Shown here: piece by piece, positions 56,501-64,000 of the stretch | Position numbering within the stretch: position 1 is the stretch's first letter | Layout: every line of letters starts with the position of its first letter | Assembly (NCBI RefSeq): GCF_000027125.1 | Contig: NC_017626.1 | Source of the DNA: Escherichia coli 042 | GTDB taxonomy: Bacteria; Pseudomonadota; Gammaproteobacteria; Enterobacterales; Enterobacteriaceae | Direction: 5' to 3' (one strand) | DNA length: 64,000 nucleotides | Position numbers: made by a program

Positions 56501-59500
56501 CATGGCTATGTGACGGTGAACGGCGCGAAGATGTCCAAGTCTCGCGGCACCTTTATTAAAGCCAGCACCTGGCTGAATCATTTTGACGCCGACAGCCTGC
56601 GTTACTACTACACTGCGAAACTTTCTTCGCGCATTGATGATATCGATCTCAACCTGGAAGATTTCGTTCAGCGTGTGAATGCCGATATCGTGAATAAAGT
56701 GGTTAACCTGGCCTCCCGTAACGCGGGCTTTATCAACAAGCGTTTTGACGGTGTGCTGGCAAGCGAACTGGCTGACCCGCAACTGTACAAAACCTTCACG
56801 GATGCCGCTGAAGTGATTGGTGAAGCGTGGGAAAGCCGCGAATTTGGTAAAGCGATCCGCGAAATCATGGCGCTGGCAGATCTGGCTAACCGTTATGTCG
56901 ATGAACAGGCTCCGTGGGTGGTGGCGAAACAGGAAGGACGCGATGCCGACCTGCAGGCAATTTGCTCGATGGGCATAAACCTGTTCCGCGTGCTGATGAC
57001 TTACCTGAAGCCGGTACTGCCGAAACTGACCGAGCGTGCAGAAGCATTCCTCAATACAGAACTGACCTGGCATGGTATCCAGCAACCGCTGCTGGGCCAC
57101 AAAGTGAATCCGTTCAAGGCGCTGTATAACCGTATTGACATGAAGCAGGTTGAAGCACTGGTGGAAGCGTCTAAAGAAGAAGTGAAAGCAGCTGCCACGC
57201 CAGTAACTGGCCCACTGGCAGATGATCCGATTCAGGAAACCATCACCTTTGACGACTTCGCCAAAGTTGACCTGCGCGTGGCGTTGATCGAAAACGCAGA
57301 GTTTGTTGAAGGTTCTGACAAACTGCTGCGCCTGACGCTGGATCTCGGCGGTGAAAAACGCAATGTCTTCTCCGGCATTCGTTCTGCTTACCCGGATCCG
57401 CAGGCACTGATTGGTCGTCATACCATTATGGTGGCTAACCTGGCACCACGTAAAATGCGCTTCGGTATCTCCGAAGGCATGGTGATGGCTGCCGGTCCTG
57501 GCGGGAAAGATATTTTCCTGCTAAGCCCGGATGCTGGTGCTAAACCGGGTCATCAGGTGAAATAATCCCCCTTCAAGGCGCTGCATCGACAGCGCCTTTT
57601 CTTTATAAATTCCTAAAGTTGTTTTCTTGCGATTTTGTCTCTCTCTAACCCGCATAAATACTGGTAGCATCAGCATTCAACTGGATAAAATTACAGGGAT
57701 GCAGAATGAGACACTTTATCTTTCAGGACGAAAAATCACATAAATTCTGGGCGGTGGAGCAACAGGGAAACGAGCTGCATATTAACTGGGGTAAAGTCGG
57801 CACTAACGGGCAAAGTCAGGTAAAAAGCTTTGCAGATGCTGCGGCGGCGGCAAAAGCGGAGCTTAAGCTGATCGCAGAGAAAACGAAAAAAGGCTATGTG
57901 GAAAATGCTTCAGCAAACGTGCATATCCCCCCCATCACCAAAGCCACTCCTGAAGTTGAAACCTCCCTTGAGAGTAAAAACAAACGCCCATGGCTGGCTG
58001 ATGATGCAGTCATTCCGGTCACTGACGATATTAATCGATTTGCTTTTCCTCATCGCTCTCGCCCCAGAGAGATCAATTATCTGTACAAAGATGGTCAAAT
58101 ATGGCAGCTCATCGCGAATAACACCAGGGCATATGATCCCGCCAACAATTACCGTTCTTATCCAGAAAACTGGCAGCAGGCTTTTGCTGAGTTACAAATG
58201 CGAGTTCAGGGTAATCAACAGACAGGGAGTGCACAATCTGATGCAGCATTGCTCTGGAGTTTCTGGAACTCTTACTCTGCAGATGAACTGGTCGATGACT
58301 TAGTCATTCGCTGTGGTCTGGAAAGTGCCGTTGAAATTGCCCTTCTCGCTCTTCAACTTAGATATAAACCAGTAAAAGGCGCAGTAACCACCATCATTCC
58401 ACCTAATCACAAAGCAGAATCGCTGCCGAGTTGGCATCAACGTCTATGTCATCATCTTTCACTCGCTTCAGAAGATGAGTGGCAACGCTGTGTAGATAAA
58501 GTACTCGCCGCCATTCCGACGCTATCCCCAGCACGGCAACCTTTTGCGGCGTTACTGCTCCCCGAATGCCCGGATATTGCCAATGCTATGGCGCTACGTT
58601 ATGCAGATCAAAACGTTCCGGCGATGACCTGGTTAAGACTGGTGGTAACCGATGACGCCGCTCTGACTACAGCAGAAAAATACGACTTCCCACCGTTGTA
58701 TCATGATTTTCGCGCTTATCTGGCAATGTTGCTGGCAAATAATGGGGTGCGCGGTGTAAGCCGGATACTTCTTGAGTTTACGGAAGAGCATTCTGACAAT
58801 CCCACTTATCTTTTCGAGCGTATCAGCGAGACTGAAGATCTTGTCAAATGGCTATGGAAAACGAATCACCCGGATGCGATTCAAATTCTGATCCTCGGTG
58901 TGATTGGCAAGAAAAAGCACCTGGAATACTTAAGCAAAGCCTGTCAAAAACATCCCGCTGCGGCTCTTGCCGCTTATGCTACTTTGCTGGCAATACATGA
59001 AGACAAAGAGTGGCGTAAAGCGCTTGTCAAACTGATTACCGCCACGCCAGAGTTAGTCACTGACGTCATTCCCAGGGTTAATGCTAAAGCGGCAGGAATT
59101 TTATCTGAATGTCGTACTCAGTTAGTCGCTGAAGAATGTGAATACGCCACTGCGGATATGTTGCCGGAGCTGTTTGTCGCTCCACCGTGGGTAATAAATA
59201 AGAAAACGAATGTAATACCCGTATTTGATTTACCGGTGCTTCCCATCCCTGCCGTCACTGACATCACGCCAGGAATTACAGAGTTAATCAGTCATACTGA
59301 CATATCCAGATTCAGTGAAATCGCGCAATTTCAGTCATCACAGCAAACCTTATTTACCGACCTGCCACTAATTGAAAAAGAAAGCTGGGAGACATCTTTC
59401 ATTCCTTTTACACCAGAACAACAAATCCTTTGGCAATTAGGTTTTAATGAATGGCTGCATTGCGAAGATGACTTACATGAAAAAAAATATATACCGCAAA

Positions 59501-62500: not shown

Positions 62501-64000
62501 AACTGACGGTCACCGATGCTCAGGTATTAGCAGACCTGGAAAAATACTATCCAGGACAGCCTGGGCAGGTATTTGATGATTACTATGGCGGTAACATCTG
62601 GTGTGCGACAGCACTCCAGGAGCAAGGAGTCACTGCGCTGGCCCGTTTTGCCCATTACGCTACTGGTGACACATGTGGTGAAGTGTTGATGCATATCAAC
62701 CACCCGCAGGCACTTACACTACTTATCCATGCAAGCGAGCAAGGAAAGCGTTGCCACGATCGCATGACAAAGGCTTTCGTTCGCTTCCCACACGCAGCGC
62801 TGGCGGCATTAGCAGAACTTCTGGCACAAAAAGATGAAAAGCGCTGGCGCATGATGCTAATGACGATGCTTATCTCGCAACCGATACTAGCAGAACAGGT
62901 CATTCCCTGGCTCTCGACACCCGCAGTTGCCGTACTGAAATCATGCCAGCAACAACTGAAACAGCCCTCAAACCATGCCAGCGCCGATATGCTGCCAGCC
63001 ATATTAGTCTCACCGCCCTGGCTTTCGAAAAAGAAAAAATCTGTAATGCCGGTATTGGATTTAACGCCATTACCGCTGGAGTCATGCTGCACATTGACCG
63101 AGACGGCAGAAAAAGAGATTCATGCAAGGCATCGCTGGCACGCACATCAAATAGACATCGGCCAAAAAGAGGATATTCAGAACTACCTGACACGTCTGGG
63201 TTTCAATCGCTGGAATAATGGCCAGTATATGAAAGCGTCTGATGCTGTTGTAGAACTCTGGCAGAGGGGAGATTATTCTGCGCTAATCAGCGAATTTAAA
63301 ACCTTCTGGCACTCCTATCAACGGGAATGGCAACTTTACATGTTAGCCGCCCTGCCTATCGAAAAAACAGCGCAGGCGTGGAATGTCCTCAGTAAAGAGC
63401 CACACGTCGGTGTCGAGTTTGTCATGACGCACCTGCAACTCGCTGGGTTACAGGGTTTTATTCACTCCTTTTCACGCTATCCACAAGAAGCTCTGCCTGT
63501 AGCACAATATTTTGCGGCTATCGAATTAGCGCCACTGATCGCCCGCGCCTTCAACAAACTCAAAACCCTACGACAAGACGCCCGTAGCTGGCTGCTGAAA
63601 TACCCGGAACACGCCATTACCGGCCTGCTGCCCGCGGCGCTCGGCAAAGCCGGTGAAGCCCAGGATAACGCCCGCGCTGCCTTGCGTATGCTTACCGAAA
63701 ACGGTCATCAGCCATTACTGCAAGAAATCGCCCGGCGTTATAACCAGCCGGAAGTAACCGATGCGGTGAACGCTCTGCTTGCGCTCGATGCCTTAGATAA
63801 TCACCCGACAAAAATCCCCACTCTTCCGGCCTTTTATCAGCCATCGCTCTGGACCCGCCCGGTATTAAAAGCAAATGCCCAATCACTGCCAGATAGCGCC
63901 CTCCTACGCCTCGGTGAAATGCTCCGCTTCCCTCAGGAAGAGGCACTGTATCCGGGATTATTGCAGGTGAAAGCCGCCTGTACCGCCGACTCACTGGCTG

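What the first reader, a model, noticed from the sequence alone, without database searches (positions are those of the whole stretch)
57706..64000. Tandem giant WGR-domain paralogs (molR intact, plus yehI) sharing a near-identical 5' segment
molR is an uninterrupted 1265-aa ORF here, whereas in K-12 MG1655 I recall it annotated as a multi-fragment pseudogene. It is followed after 12 bp by a paralog (yehI) whose first ~190 nt (WGR domain: ...DEKSHKFWAVEQQ.NELHINWGKVGTNGQSQVKSF...KKGYVE) are almost identical to the molR 5' end, while downstream sequence is clearly diverged. That pattern suggests gene conversion or selection on the N-terminal WGR module. The 'molybdate metabolism regulator' name rests on old genetics, so the function of these proteins is effectively unknown.
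Basis: partly seen in the sequence, partly recalled or inferred. Interest (0 to 1): 0.55.

Follow-up and report, generated by a model that had tools for sequence, protein, structure and literature searches.

The report
Tandem WGR-DUF4132 paralogs sharing a converted 5' end
Two neighbouring giant genes of unknown function share an almost identical first 200 bases because that piece, which encodes a small predicted DNA-binding (WGR) domain, has been copied between them; the laboratory strain K-12's "molR" turns out to be a fusion of these two genes made by recombination in that shared piece.

Summary
Gene g1 (57706-61503, intact, 1265 aa) is followed after 12 bp by a paralog, g2. Their first 198 nt are 89% identical and similarity then collapses (35% aa in-window).

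The labels are partly wrong. g2 is not yehI. It is the counterpart of the body of K-12 molR (76% aa). True yehI lacks a WGR domain and lies beyond the window as a third gene. K-12 molR is disrupted, and it is also a g1(5')/g2(body) hybrid, with the crossover at nt ~159-168 of the shared segment.

The shared segment is exactly the WGR domain. Synonymous sites show that it was homogenised: 77% same-codon use against 39% elsewhere (p=4e-7), with no such constraint in Erwinia or Serratia orthologs. Gene conversion therefore acted alongside strong purifying selection.

The three-gene array is ancestral in Escherichia. It is preceded by a conserved LexA box, is mosaic and often pseudogenised in E. 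coli, and sits upstream of yehLMPQ (MoxR AAA+, DUF5682, VWA, SWIM). Across phyla the operon is [WGR-DUF4132]n-YehLMPQ with n from 1 to at least 5.

Function remains inferred: WGR-tethered ARM/HEAT adaptors for a MoxR-VWA remodelling machine.

The parts
57575..57598 (+). metG intrinsic terminator. It marks the start of the 140-bp metG-g1 intergenic region that carries the array's promoter.
   Evidence: 9-bp GC-rich stem followed by a T-run. The intergenic sequence is nearly invariant among E. coli loci. A BglJ-RcsB-activated molR promoter was mapped in this region in K-12 (PMC3950696).
57681..57696 (.). LexA (SOS) box-like palindrome CTGGATAAAATTACAG, 10-25 nt upstream of the g1 start codon.
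   Evidence: It is the only CTG-N-W8-N-CAG site in the 64-kb window. It is conserved in all Escherichia loci examined, including E. fergusonii and E. marmotae. molR is listed among LexA-regulated genes with a known SOS box (PMC6590174).
57706..61503 (+). g1, the first gene of the array: an intact 1265-aa protein made of WGR, linker, ARM/HEAT-like solenoid and DUF4132. K-12 has no counterpart of its body.
   Evidence: ORF; Pfam; AlphaFold models with pLDDT 82.5 and 94.1; 97.2% nt identity to the first gene of E. coli 300033; 85-95% aa identity to many Escherichia allele clusters.
57706..57903 (+). Copy 1 of the shared 198-nt segment. It encodes the WGR domain (aa 1-66).
   Evidence: Direct repeat D1. 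The model matches the 2RA8 WGR with rmsd 1.0 A over 69 residues. dS 0.44-0.48 and dN 0.02-0.03 against g2.
57850..57873 (+). Zone in which the natural g1/g2 hybrid genes (K-12 molR, ST2747 gene) switch from g1-type to g2-type sequence.
   Evidence: Informative-site runs and maximum chi-square: break at nt 146-156 for ST2747 (0 of 10,000 permutations) and at nt 159-168 for K-12 (p<=0.0014).
57904..57987 (+). Disordered, hypervariable linker (aa 67-94) between the WGR domain and the conserved PWLAD motif. Similarity between the paralogs ends here.
   Evidence: pLDDT about 41 for aa 72-91. The sequence differs in every allele class. The yehI alignment begins at aa 95.
57988..60585 (+). ARM/HEAT-like alpha-solenoid (aa ~95-960). 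It contains the allelic 'cassette' block at codons ~501-700.
60700..61251 (+). DUF4132 (Pfam PF13569), part of the conserved C-terminal core (aa ~655-1263). It forms an alpha/beta domain with many invariant Arg residues.
   Evidence: Pfam E=6.5e-50. The conserved core is defined by 6147 representative homologs. There is no significant PDB fold match other than a small YugN-like piece.
61504..61515 (+). 12-bp g1-g2 spacer with an AAGGA ribosome-binding site. The tight spacing suggests co-transcription.
   Evidence: Sequence. The same 12-bp spacing occurs in E. coli 300033, 118UI, AR_0104, strain 144 and E. fergusonii.
61516..64000 (+). g2, the second gene of the array, cut by the window end (828 of about 1253 aa). 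It is the counterpart of the body of K-12 molR, not yehI.
   Evidence: 99.7% identical to the second gene of E. coli 300033 (1253 aa). K-12 molR matches it at 90% over nt 1963-2516, at 71% over nt 664-1590 and at 82% over nt 1-197. K-12-type protein is 76% identical to this g2 type.
61516..61713 (+). Copy 2 of the shared 198-nt WGR-coding segment.

Best explanation
**What it is (shown).** The window ends inside a tandem array of three paralogous genes inserted between metG and yehK/yehLMPQ.
- g1 and g2 each encode an N-terminal WGR domain, a disordered linker, a roughly 900-aa ARM/HEAT-like solenoid and a C-terminal DUF4132 alpha/beta domain.
- The third gene, yehI, lies just beyond the window and is the same protein without the WGR domain.

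**Why the 5' ends match (shown).**
- The 198-nt shared segment is exactly the WGR-coding module.
- The WGR domain is under very strong purifying selection (dN/dS about 0.05).
- The segment has also been homogenised between g1 and g2 by non-reciprocal exchange (gene conversion). This happened at about the age of the genus Escherichia, whereas the gene bodies are far older and their synonymous sites are saturated.

**What the shared segment does to the locus (shown).**
- It is a substrate for unequal homologous recombination. A crossover near its 3' end deleted the g1 body and produced a g1(5')/g2(body) hybrid.
- That hybrid is the 'molR' of K-12 and of most E. coli. In K-12 it was later inactivated.
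- The window carries the ancestral three-gene state.

**How the proteins most likely work (inferred, not shown).**
- They are adaptor or sensor subunits of the YehL (MoxR AAA+), YehP (VWA), YehM (DUF5682) and YehQ (SWIM) machine.
- The WGR domain tethers the solenoid to a nucleic-acid feature, as WGR does in PARPs.
- The variable solenoid gives each paralog a different partner specificity, and the conserved C-terminal core docks to the ATPase/VWA module.
- In Escherichia the array is switched on by DNA damage through its LexA box.
For: **Anatomy**
- ORFs, Pfam and models.
- Three-gene arrays occur at the same site in E. coli 300033, 118UI, AR_0104, strain 144 and O157, and in E. fergusonii. 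E. marmotae has g1 plus a truncated g2.
- yehI lacks WGR.

**Gene conversion**
- WGR codons 6-66: dS 0.44-0.48. The rest of the gene has pS 0.64-0.88, i.e. saturated.
- Same-codon fraction is 0.77 in the WGR segment and 0.39 elsewhere in-window (p=4e-7). It is only 0.49 in the well-conserved aa 801-1000.
- Control: Escherichia WGR segments against Erwinia, Serratia and Edaphovirga give 0.40-0.55, so the segment has no intrinsic synonymous constraint.
- The same excess occurs in an unrelated Rhodanobacteraceae pair: 0.78 against about 0.52 (p=3e-4).

**Hybrids**
- Informative-site runs and maximum chi-square place the breaks at nt 146-156 (ST2747) and nt 159-168 (K-12).
- K-12-type protein is 76% identical to the g2 type and 48% identical to g1.
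- The K-12-type gene covers at least 80% of the query in 4011 of 5426 genomes.
- The WGR segment is found at 6246 places in 4604 genomes.

**Link to YehLMPQ**
- Among 66 loci from many phyla, YehL, YehM, YehP and YehQ homologs lie within 10 kb in 42, 41, 38 and 35 loci respectively. They are arranged as [WGR-DUF4132]n-L-M-P-Q, with n from 1 to at least 5.

**Regulation**
- Conserved LexA box.
- Literature: PMC6590174, PMC3950696, PMC8533742.
Against: - Paralogs within one genome are not consistently closer to each other than to paralogs in other genomes: 21-31 differences in either comparison. Conversion is therefore historic or scrambled by recombination, not demonstrably ongoing.
- The 18 shared polymorphic sites between the g1 and g2 groups are no more than chance overlap at third codon positions would give.
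- The two hybrids break only about 10-20 nt apart and share the same downstream WGR end. One ancient deletion followed by flank replacement cannot be excluded.
- Massilia arrays do not show a clear synonymous excess in the WGR segment.
- The functional model has no direct support. No enzyme or effector fold was found. No solved relative exists for YehM or YehQ. No LexA-type box was found upstream of homologs in other taxa or upstream of yehL.
- In E. coli, yehK and the ZorO toxin genes separate the array from yehLMPQ.
- Many strains carry pseudogenes in the array or in yehL/yehM.
Confidence: 0.72

Rival explanations
1. Selection only. The 5' segments are alike solely because the WGR domain tolerates almost no amino-acid change, and no sequence exchange took place between the paralogs.
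For: - dN/dS is about 0.05 in the segment.
- This WGR type is conserved across phyla: 56% identity to Bacteroides 2RA8, E=3e-18.
- There is no within-genome clustering of g1 with g2.
Against: - Protein-level selection cannot hold synonymous sites. The same-codon fraction is 0.77 in the segment, against 0.39-0.49 in other conserved parts of the same genes.
- It is also only 0.40-0.55 when the same WGR segment is compared with Erwinia, Serratia or Edaphovirga.
- WGR aa identity between g1 and g2 is 95%, compared with 56-67% for Escherichia against those genera, although the g1 and g2 bodies are only 30-35% identical in the N-terminal half.
Confidence: 0.08
2. A nucleotide-level functional element (an RNA structure, an antisense RNA, or an internal promoter or operator) lies inside the first 200 nt and constrains both copies.
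For: The conservation is at DNA level and stops abruptly.
Against: - No Rfam match at E<=1 in 57000-64000.
- No + strand promoter-like site was reported anywhere in 57400-64000, so none lies in either copy.
- The boundaries coincide with a protein-domain boundary and a disordered linker.
- Differences are overwhelmingly synonymous.
- Orthologous segments in other Enterobacterales are saturated at synonymous sites.
Confidence: 0.04
3. The array with yehLMPQ is an anti-phage or anti-mobile-element defence system. The paralogs would be diversified sensors, and the mosaicism would reflect an arms race.
For: - Copy number varies from 0 to 3 in E. coli and reaches at least 5 in Massilia.
- Alleles are deeply divergent cassettes with trans-species sharing.
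- Pseudogenes and IS or transposon hits are frequent (PMC9334617).
- Toxin genes lie nearby: ZorO and AbiEii in L012.
- The array is under SOS control.
Against: - No PADLOC family matches any of the eight proteins.
- No nuclease, protease or other effector fold was found.
- No block has dN/dS above 1 apart from one window based on a tiny dS.
- The locus sits at a fixed chromosomal site between housekeeping genes across the genus.
- Two of the four distant homologs whose contigs were read stand alone among metabolic genes.
Confidence: 0.18
4. MolR is what its name says: a DNA-binding transcription factor that regulates molybdate metabolism.
For: - The name comes from 1990 genetics (Lee et al., cited).
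- The Aravind group refers to WGR as the DNA-binding domain of 'MolR-like TFs' (PMC7824862).
Against: - The gene is a pseudogene in K-12, the strain lineage used for classical genetics.
- The protein is a 1265-aa solenoid whose conserved partners are MoxR, VWA, SWIM and DUF5682, not mod or moa genes.
- In Deinococcus, molybdenum genes did not respond together with the WGR and DUF4132 genes (PMC8533742).
Confidence: 0.07
5. A decaying locus. The diversity and pseudogenes simply reflect relaxed selection on genes that E. coli no longer needs, within a recombination-rich chromosomal region.
For: - Many independent inactivations.
- Whole-gene dN/dS is 0.13-0.33, against 0.01-0.05 for metG and yehL.
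- metG and yehL themselves show unusually high intraspecific dS of 0.13-0.22.
Against: - dN/dS remains well below 1.
- Intact 1210-1265-aa ORFs persist in E. coli and E. fergusonii. E. marmotae keeps an intact g1.
- The C-terminal core is conserved across 6147 representative homologs.
- Divergent blocks have saturated dS, which indicates old alleles rather than recent decay.
Confidence: 0.2

Closest known systems
E. coli K-12 molR (yehF / yehG / yehH, b2115-b2117 / b4499) and yehI (b2118)
   Same: - Same chromosomal site after metG, with the same promoter region and LexA box.
- Same WGR-solenoid-DUF4132 architecture.
- g2 is the counterpart of the molR body: 76% aa, and about 90% nt in the 3' part.
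   Different: - K-12 has two genes, not three.
- Its molR is a g1/g2 hybrid and is disrupted by a stop at codon 275 and a +1 frameshift at nt 2846.
- g1 has no K-12 counterpart beyond its first ~160 nt.
- yehI has no WGR and is not in the window.
MoxR AAA+ / VWA chaperone-like pairs (RavA-ViaA, NorQ-NorD, CbbQ-CbbO). YehL is the type member of one MoxR subfamily (recalled from Snider & Houry 2006, not checked here).
   Same: - The array is genetically linked across phyla to a MoxR-type AAA_5 ATPase and a VWA_CoxE protein.
- YehL's nearest solved relatives by sequence are midasin AAA domains.
   Different: - No characterised MoxR-VWA system has WGR-solenoid-DUF4132, DUF5682 and SWIM partners.
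- None is known to have a tandemly expanded partner gene.
- No substrate enzyme is encoded nearby.
- The Aravind survey of MoxR-vWA conflict systems mentions neither WGR, SWIM nor YehL (PMC7159879).
WGR domains of PARP1, PARP2 and PARP3, and the bacterial WGR protein 2RA8 (Bacteroides fragilis, WGR plus a C-terminal region I recall as leucine-rich repeats, not checked here)
   Same: - Pfam WGR match.
- The fold superposes on 2RA8 at 1.0 A.
- The W-G-[KR] motif aligns with that of PARP3.
- The domain is N-terminal to a repeat scaffold, as in 2RA8.
   Different: - There is no ADP-ribosyltransferase domain.
- DNA-break binding is known for PARP WGR domains (from my own knowledge) and is untested here.
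Tandem paralog families with a homogenised constant module and unequal crossover (textbook cases recalled from memory: rRNA operons, tuf genes, opa/pil antigen loci)
   Same: - The tract has sharp boundaries and lower synonymous divergence than its flanks.
- It also mediates a deletion that fuses two neighbouring genes.
   Different: - The tract is only about 180 nt.
- It corresponds to one protein domain.
- Homogenisation is old (dS about 0.45), not ongoing.

Membership tests
WGR domain (Pfam PF05406) | Significant match to the family HMM | tested here: met
   g1 aa 5-69, E=1.1e-18. For g2, WGR is precomputed on the orthologous gene in E. fergusonii.
WGR domain (Pfam PF05406) | Antiparallel beta-sheet plus helix fold, as in solved WGR structures | tested here: met
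   Model aa 1-66 has pLDDT above 90, with four strands and a helix. Foldseek matches 2RA8 at rmsd 1.0 A over 69 residues.
WGR domain (Pfam PF05406) | Nucleic-acid binding | not testable with these tools
   Only inferred from PARP WGR domains and from the Aravind group's description.
DUF4132 (Pfam PF13569) | Significant match to the family HMM | tested here: met
   aa 999-1182, full model 1-179, E=6.5e-50.
Ortholog of K-12 molR | First gene after metG, behind the same promoter and LexA box | tested here: met
   True for g1. The intergenic region is nearly identical to that of K-12.
Ortholog of K-12 molR | Gene body orthologous along its length | tested here: not met
   - g1 against K-12-type MolR: 48% aa. 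DNA similarity is limited to nt 1-197 (87%) and a 71% stretch.
- g2 meets this feature better: 76% aa, and 90% nt over nt 1963-2516.
yehI (claimed for the second gene) | WGR-less DUF4132 protein of about 1210 aa that starts at the PWLAD motif and lies immediately upstream of yehK | tested here: not met
   - g2 has a WGR domain and is about 41% identical to YehI.
- It shows almost no DNA similarity to yehI, only short stretches of about 70% identity.
- yehI is the third gene in close relatives.
MoxR-VWA system (YehL type) | MoxR AAA+ ATPase and VWA protein encoded next to the gene | tested here: met
   - These genes are not visible in the window, which ends at 64000.
- They are present downstream in near-identical E. 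coli loci.
- YehL and YehP homologs lie within 10 kb in 42 and 38 of the 66 diverse loci.
LexA (SOS) regulon | CTG-N10-CAG operator next to the promoter or start codon | tested here: met
   CTGGATAAAATTACAG at 57681-57696. It is unique in its class in the window and conserved across Escherichia.
LexA (SOS) regulon | LexA binding and damage-inducible transcription | not testable with these tools
   Reported for K-12 molR in the literature summarised in PMC6590174. Not tested for this allele.
Known anti-phage defence systems (PADLOC-DB) | Match of any component to a defence-system HMM | tested here: not met
   No families matched g1, g2, YehI, YehK, YehL, YehM, YehP or YehQ at E<=0.01.
Gene-conversion tract between paralogs | Synonymous divergence in the tract much lower than in the flanks, with sharp boundaries | tested here: met
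   dS is 0.44-0.48 in the tract and saturated outside it. Same-codon fraction is 0.77 against 0.39 (p=4e-7). A control shows no intrinsic constraint.
Gene-conversion tract between paralogs | Paralogs within a genome more alike than paralogs from different genomes (ongoing concerted evolution) | tested here: not met
   Differences number 21-31 within genomes and 21-35 between genomes.

The most novel reading that the evidence does not exclude
[WGR-DUF4132]n-YehL-YehM-YehP-YehQ is a widespread, uncharacterised five-component machine. Its family comprises 6147 homologous cluster representatives and spans Proteobacteria, Myxococcota and Actinobacteria.

In this reading, tandemly diversified WGR-tethered solenoid adaptors present different targets at DNA lesions, or on foreign nucleic acid, to a midasin-like MoxR/VWA remodelling motor. 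The conserved WGR-coding module then doubles as a recombination handle that lets genomes expand, contract and shuffle the adaptor repertoire.

In Escherichia the adaptor array is under SOS control. In Deinococcus, separate WGR-domain (DR2173) and DUF4132-domain (DRA0166) genes are under the DdrO damage regulon.
Probability: 0.22. Interest if true: 0.75.

Novelty: new variant of a known kind. Interest (0 to 1): 0.5.

Why it matters
1. **Gene names.** It corrects the naming in a much-used genome region. 'molR' of K-12 is a fusion of two ancestral genes, and annotation pipelines call three different paralogs by overlapping names. This can mislead comparative and pangenome analyses; for example, the ST131 'DUF4132 region' is used as a transposon insertion marker.
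2. **A clean natural example.** A 200-nt domain-coding module is both kept uniform by gene conversion and used as the crossover site that changes gene number.
3. **An open functional question.** The results flag a large, conserved and completely uncharacterised MoxR-VWA-SWIM system whose adaptor-like partner is SOS-controlled in E. coli. They also supply concrete handles for experiments: intact three-gene strains, the WGR domain, the LexA box and the invariant Arg-rich DUF4132 core.

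Tried and rejected
- **Rfam.** A scan of 57000-64000 at E<=1 found nothing. An RNA element was rejected as the cause of the conservation.
- **PADLOC.** No match for any of the eight locus proteins.
- **NCBIfam.** It matched only the WGR part of an unrelated Leptospira family, far below the curated cutoff.
- **PDB sequence searches.** None for YehM or YehQ.
- **Shared polymorphisms as proof of ongoing conversion.** Rejected, because chance overlap at third codon positions is as large.
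- **Positive selection.** I looked for dN/dS above 1 in 100-codon windows across alleles. Only one window, with a tiny dS, exceeded 1, so positive selection by point mutation is not supported.
- **Origin of the divergent blocks.** I tested whether they were copied from the other paralogs. They were not; they are alternative alleles at orthologous positions.
- **LexA-type boxes elsewhere.** None upstream of homologs in 36 other taxa or upstream of yehL.
- **Generality of the synonymous excess.** Present in a Rhodanobacteraceae pair, not clear in Massilia.
- **Literature.** Searches for DUF4132, DUF5682, yehP/yehQ and WGR+MoxR+vWA found no functional study. A hit for yehH in an E. coli radioresistance paper could not be located in its main text.

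Full report
**1. The observation**

The ORF at 57706-61503 (+) is intact and encodes 1265 aa. Its TAA is followed 12 bp later by an ATG at 61516, preceded by AAGGA. That second frame stays open to the window's end (828 aa).

The repeat finder reports a single long direct repeat in 57500-64000: 57705-57903 against 61515-61713, 199 nt at 89% identity. blastn gives 89.4% over nt 1-198. Beyond about nt 200 the DNA alignment is noise, and the proteins are 35% identical over the in-window part. Pfam finds WGR (aa 5-69, E=1e-18) and DUF4132 (aa 999-1182, E=6.5e-50) in g1.

**2. Which genes these are**

K-12 MG1655 has metG, then yehF (275 aa, WGR), the yehH pseudogene, yehI (1210 aa), yehK and yehLMPQ. 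Compared with the intact 1264-aa BL21 allele, K-12 has a stop at codon 275 and an extra G at nt 2846.

The gene assignments, however, are wrong.
- The closest complete E. coli genome, strain 300033 (98.2% over the whole query), carries three DUF4132 genes after metG: 1265 aa, 1253 aa, and a yehI ortholog.
- Strains 118UI, AR_0104, 144 and O157:H7 show the same arrangement.
- The window's second gene is 99.7% identical to the second gene of strain 300033.
- K-12 yehI matches only the third gene (about 94%).
- K-12 molR matches the second gene at 90-92% in its 3' half, at 71% in the middle and at 82% over nt 1-197. It matches g1 only at 71% over about 970 nt, plus 87% over nt 1-197.
- At protein level, K-12-type MolR is 76% identical to the window's g2 type and 48% identical to g1. 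YehI is 35-42% identical to all of them.
- YehI has no WGR domain. Its alignment to g1 starts at g1 aa 95, the PWLAD motif.

The window therefore holds genes 1 and 2 of a three-gene array, and yehI lies just past coordinate 64000.

**3. Why the 5' ends match**

The shared 198 nt are exactly the WGR domain.
- The AlphaFold model of aa 1-660 (pLDDT 82.5) has a confident beta-sheet-plus-helix domain at aa 1-66. It superposes on the WGR domain of PDB 2RA8 at 1.0 A.
- A disordered linker follows (aa 72-91, pLDDT about 41). It differs in every allele.

Nei-Gojobori estimates for g1 against g2 give dS 0.44-0.48 and dN 0.02-0.03 for codons 6-66. Everywhere else pS is 0.64-0.88, which is saturated.

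A cleaner test counts how often identical residues use the same codon.
- In the WGR segment the fraction is 43/56 = 0.77.
- In the rest of the in-window alignment it is 91/233 = 0.39 (Fisher p=4.4e-7).
- Even the well-conserved aa 801-1000 (69% aa identity) reaches only 0.49.
- As a control for intrinsic synonymous constraint, the same WGR segment compared between Escherichia and Erwinia, Serratia or Edaphovirga gives 0.40-0.55.

The two WGR-coding segments therefore share a much younger ancestor than the gene bodies. This is non-reciprocal exchange between paralogs, on top of strong purifying selection (omega about 0.05).

The g1-g2 value (0.64-0.78) equals that of true orthologs between E. 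coli and E. fergusonii (0.69-0.84). Paralogs within a genome are no closer to each other than to paralogs of other genomes. Homogenisation thus dates to about the origin of the genus and is not demonstrably ongoing.

An unrelated Rhodanobacteraceae MAG with two tandem paralogs shows the same excess (0.78 against about 0.52, p=3e-4). Massilia arrays do not show it clearly.

**4. The shared segment as a crossover site**

g1 alleles begin MRHFI[FY] and g2 alleles begin MKTYIY. The single WGR gene of two-gene arrays (K-12, ST2747) begins with the g1 signature, but its body is g2-type.

Site-by-site comparison gives the following.
- ST2747: all 12 informative sites from nt 5 to 144 follow the window's g1, and the sequence then becomes g2-type. 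Maximum chi-square places the break at nt 155/156, with 0 of 10,000 permutations reaching the observed value.
- K-12: 17 of 20 informative sites up to nt 159 follow g1, and all sites from nt 168 onward follow g2 (p<=0.0014).
- ST2747's metG is 100% identical to the window's.

E. fergusonii has the full three-gene array at the same site. E. marmotae has g1, a truncated g2 and no called yehI. The three-gene state is therefore ancestral, and the hybrids arose by deletion through unequal recombination in the WGR-coding segment. Whether this happened once or twice is uncertain, because the breaks lie only 10-20 nt apart.

In the population:
- The K-12-type hybrid covers at least 80% of the query in 4011 of 5426 complete genomes.
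- The WGR segment occurs at 6246 places in 4604 genomes. At most about 30% of genomes therefore carry two WGR genes.
- The window's own g1+g2 combination is covered at 80% or more in 749 genomes.

**5. A mosaic, frequently damaged locus**

- Alleles of g1 differ by 3-12% in nucleotide sequence, and alleles of yehI by 3-15%. metG differs by 0-4.5%.
- Divergence is blockwise. Saturated-dS blocks lie at g1 codons 501-700, g2 codons 101-400 and 501-700, and yehI codons 401-700, next to blocks with dS of 0-0.3.
- The blocks are alternative alleles at orthologous positions, not copies of the other paralogs. They are shared across species: E. fergusonii's g1 block is 97.7% identical to the window's, whereas E. 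coli AR_0104 and O157 are 72% identical to it.
- Whole-gene dN/dS is 0.13-0.33, against 0.01-0.05 for metG and yehL. No block shows omega above 1 on a meaningful dS.
- Inactivations are common: K-12 molR; O157 g1 and g2; 300033 yehI and yehM; strain 144 yehL and yehM; ST2747 yehM. IS1 has deleted all or most of the array in two strains.
- A resistance transposon sits in this 'DUF4132 region' in an ST131 sublineage (PMC9334617).

**6. What the proteins are**

- The C-terminal model (aa 640-1265) has pLDDT 94.1 and pTM 0.88. It shows further helical repeats followed by an alpha/beta domain.
- Foldseek finds nothing at E<=1e-3 apart from a small YugN-like piece.
- No catalytic fold was recognised.
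- The family is very large: 6147 representatives of 50% clusters at E<=1e-3. The conserved core corresponds to g1 aa ~655-1263, and the N-terminal half is variable.
- The core has 24 invariant columns in the 80-sequence alignment, seven of which are arginines.

**7. Genomic company**

- Two of the four distant homologs whose contigs were read lie in operons with AAA_5 (MoxR), DUF5682, VWA_CoxE and a SWIM-like protein. One of these operons also carries a WGR-less DUF4132 paralog.
- In 66 distinct loci from the species-representative genome collection, YehL, YehM, YehP and YehQ homologs lie within 10 kb in 42, 41, 38 and 35 loci. Many of the remaining loci are short contigs.
- The order is [WGR-DUF4132]n-L-M-P-Q.
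  - n=1: Erwinia, Serratia, Herbidospora and a Propionibacteriaceae MAG.
  - n=2: a Rhodanobacteraceae MAG, and Rhizobacter, where the second copy lacks WGR.
  - n=3: Tahibacter.
  - n>=5: Massilia.
- YehL's nearest solved relatives by sequence are midasin AAA domains.

The Escherichia array is thus one case of an expandable 'front end' attached to a single-copy MoxR-VWA 'back end'. In most E. coli, yehK and one or two ZorO type I toxin genes have been inserted between the two (PMC2887945).

**8. Regulation**

The palindrome CTGGATAAAATTACAG lies 10-25 nt upstream of the g1 ATG (57681-57696). It is the only CTG-N-W8-N-CAG site in the 64-kb window. It is conserved in E. fergusonii and E. marmotae although the surrounding sequence differs.

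From the literature:
- molR is listed among LexA-regulated genes with a known SOS box (PMC6590174).
- BglJ-RcsB activates its promoter (PMC3950696).
- In Deinococcus, a WGR gene and a DUF4132 gene belong to the DdrO damage regulon (PMC8533742).
- No LexA-type box was found by simple patterns upstream of homologs in 36 other taxa or upstream of yehL.

**9. Mechanism**

Shown:
- the domain architecture;
- conversion of the WGR module;
- the hybrid origin of K-12 molR;
- linkage to YehLMPQ;
- a conserved LexA box.

Inferred:
- The proteins are WGR-tethered solenoid adaptors or sensors for a MoxR-VWA remodelling motor.
- The variable solenoid sets specificity, and the conserved core docks to the motor.
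- Expression is damage-induced in Escherichia.

I put about 0.85 on the evolutionary account and about 0.3 on the functional model.

Rivals for function, none excluded, are a defence system (0.18), relaxed or decaying genes (0.2) and a molybdate regulator (0.07).

**10. Novelty**

The domains, the K-12 pseudogene, the LexA listing and the three 'DUF4132' genes of ST131 are on record. I found no paper in the searchable library that describes any of the following:
- the hybrid origin of K-12 molR;
- the converted WGR module;
- the allelic cassettes;
- the [WGR-DUF4132]n-YehLMPQ architecture.

This is an ordinary evolutionary mechanism acting on an unusually opaque, widespread system.

Noticed in passing
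window 57681-57696: A LexA/SOS-box-like palindrome, CTGGATAAAATTACAG, lies just upstream of the g1 start codon. It overlaps the ribosome-binding region and is conserved across Escherichia species.
   Followed up: yes
window 55532-57565 (metG) and yehL in related loci: The flanking housekeeping genes are unusually diverse within E. coli. metG dS is 0.13-0.22 between strains, as large as between E. coli and E. fergusonii (0.21). The region may lie in a high-recombination zone; from memory, the rfb-flanking hot region. Hitch-hiking with the polymorphic array is another possibility.
   Followed up: partly
[not shown]
   Followed up: partly
L002, L004, L005, L006 (yehM): yehM (DUF5682) is annotated with an internal stop or a frameshift in four of the sampled E. 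coli strains, yet is intact in K-12 and 118UI. I did not check whether this is one shared lesion, recoding or independent decay.
   Followed up: no
L007 12088-12785; L009 12909-13606: IS1 elements have replaced the whole DUF4132 array (metG-IS1-yehL) in one strain. In another they truncated the first gene after about 300 codons. That second strain also has an IS4-family element inside yehM.
   Followed up: partly
L018 (MAG labelled Collinsella sp.): A 2.8-kb contig of an actinobacterial gut MAG is 98% identical to E. coli g1. This is most likely E. coli contamination of the bin.
   Followed up: no
L035, L037, L043, L046, L052, L061, L075 (Massilia spp.): Massilia genomes carry tandem arrays of at least 5-7 WGR-DUF4132 paralogs directly upstream of one yehLMPQ operon, plus orphan copies elsewhere. 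Some members lack WGR or are fragments.
   Followed up: partly
L027, L079 (Mycobacterium talmoniae contigs): Short contigs of a Mycobacterium assembly encode homologs that are 48-55% identical to the Escherichia core, as close as those of Burkholderiales. This suggests either horizontal transfer or assembly contamination.
   Followed up: no
window 57706-61503 compared with L008 16001-19798: Even against its closest relatives, the window's g1 is patchy. Codons 1-100, 301-800 and 1101-1200 are identical, whereas codons 901-1100 have dS of 0.4-0.5. This indicates recent short recombination imports inside the gene.
   Followed up: partly
A2 alignment (g1 aa 640-1265): The conserved core has 24 invariant columns in the 80-sequence alignment, including seven arginines, three tryptophans, one histidine and one aspartate. 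Such a pattern suits an anionic ligand or a docking surface. It was not mapped onto the model.
   Followed up: no
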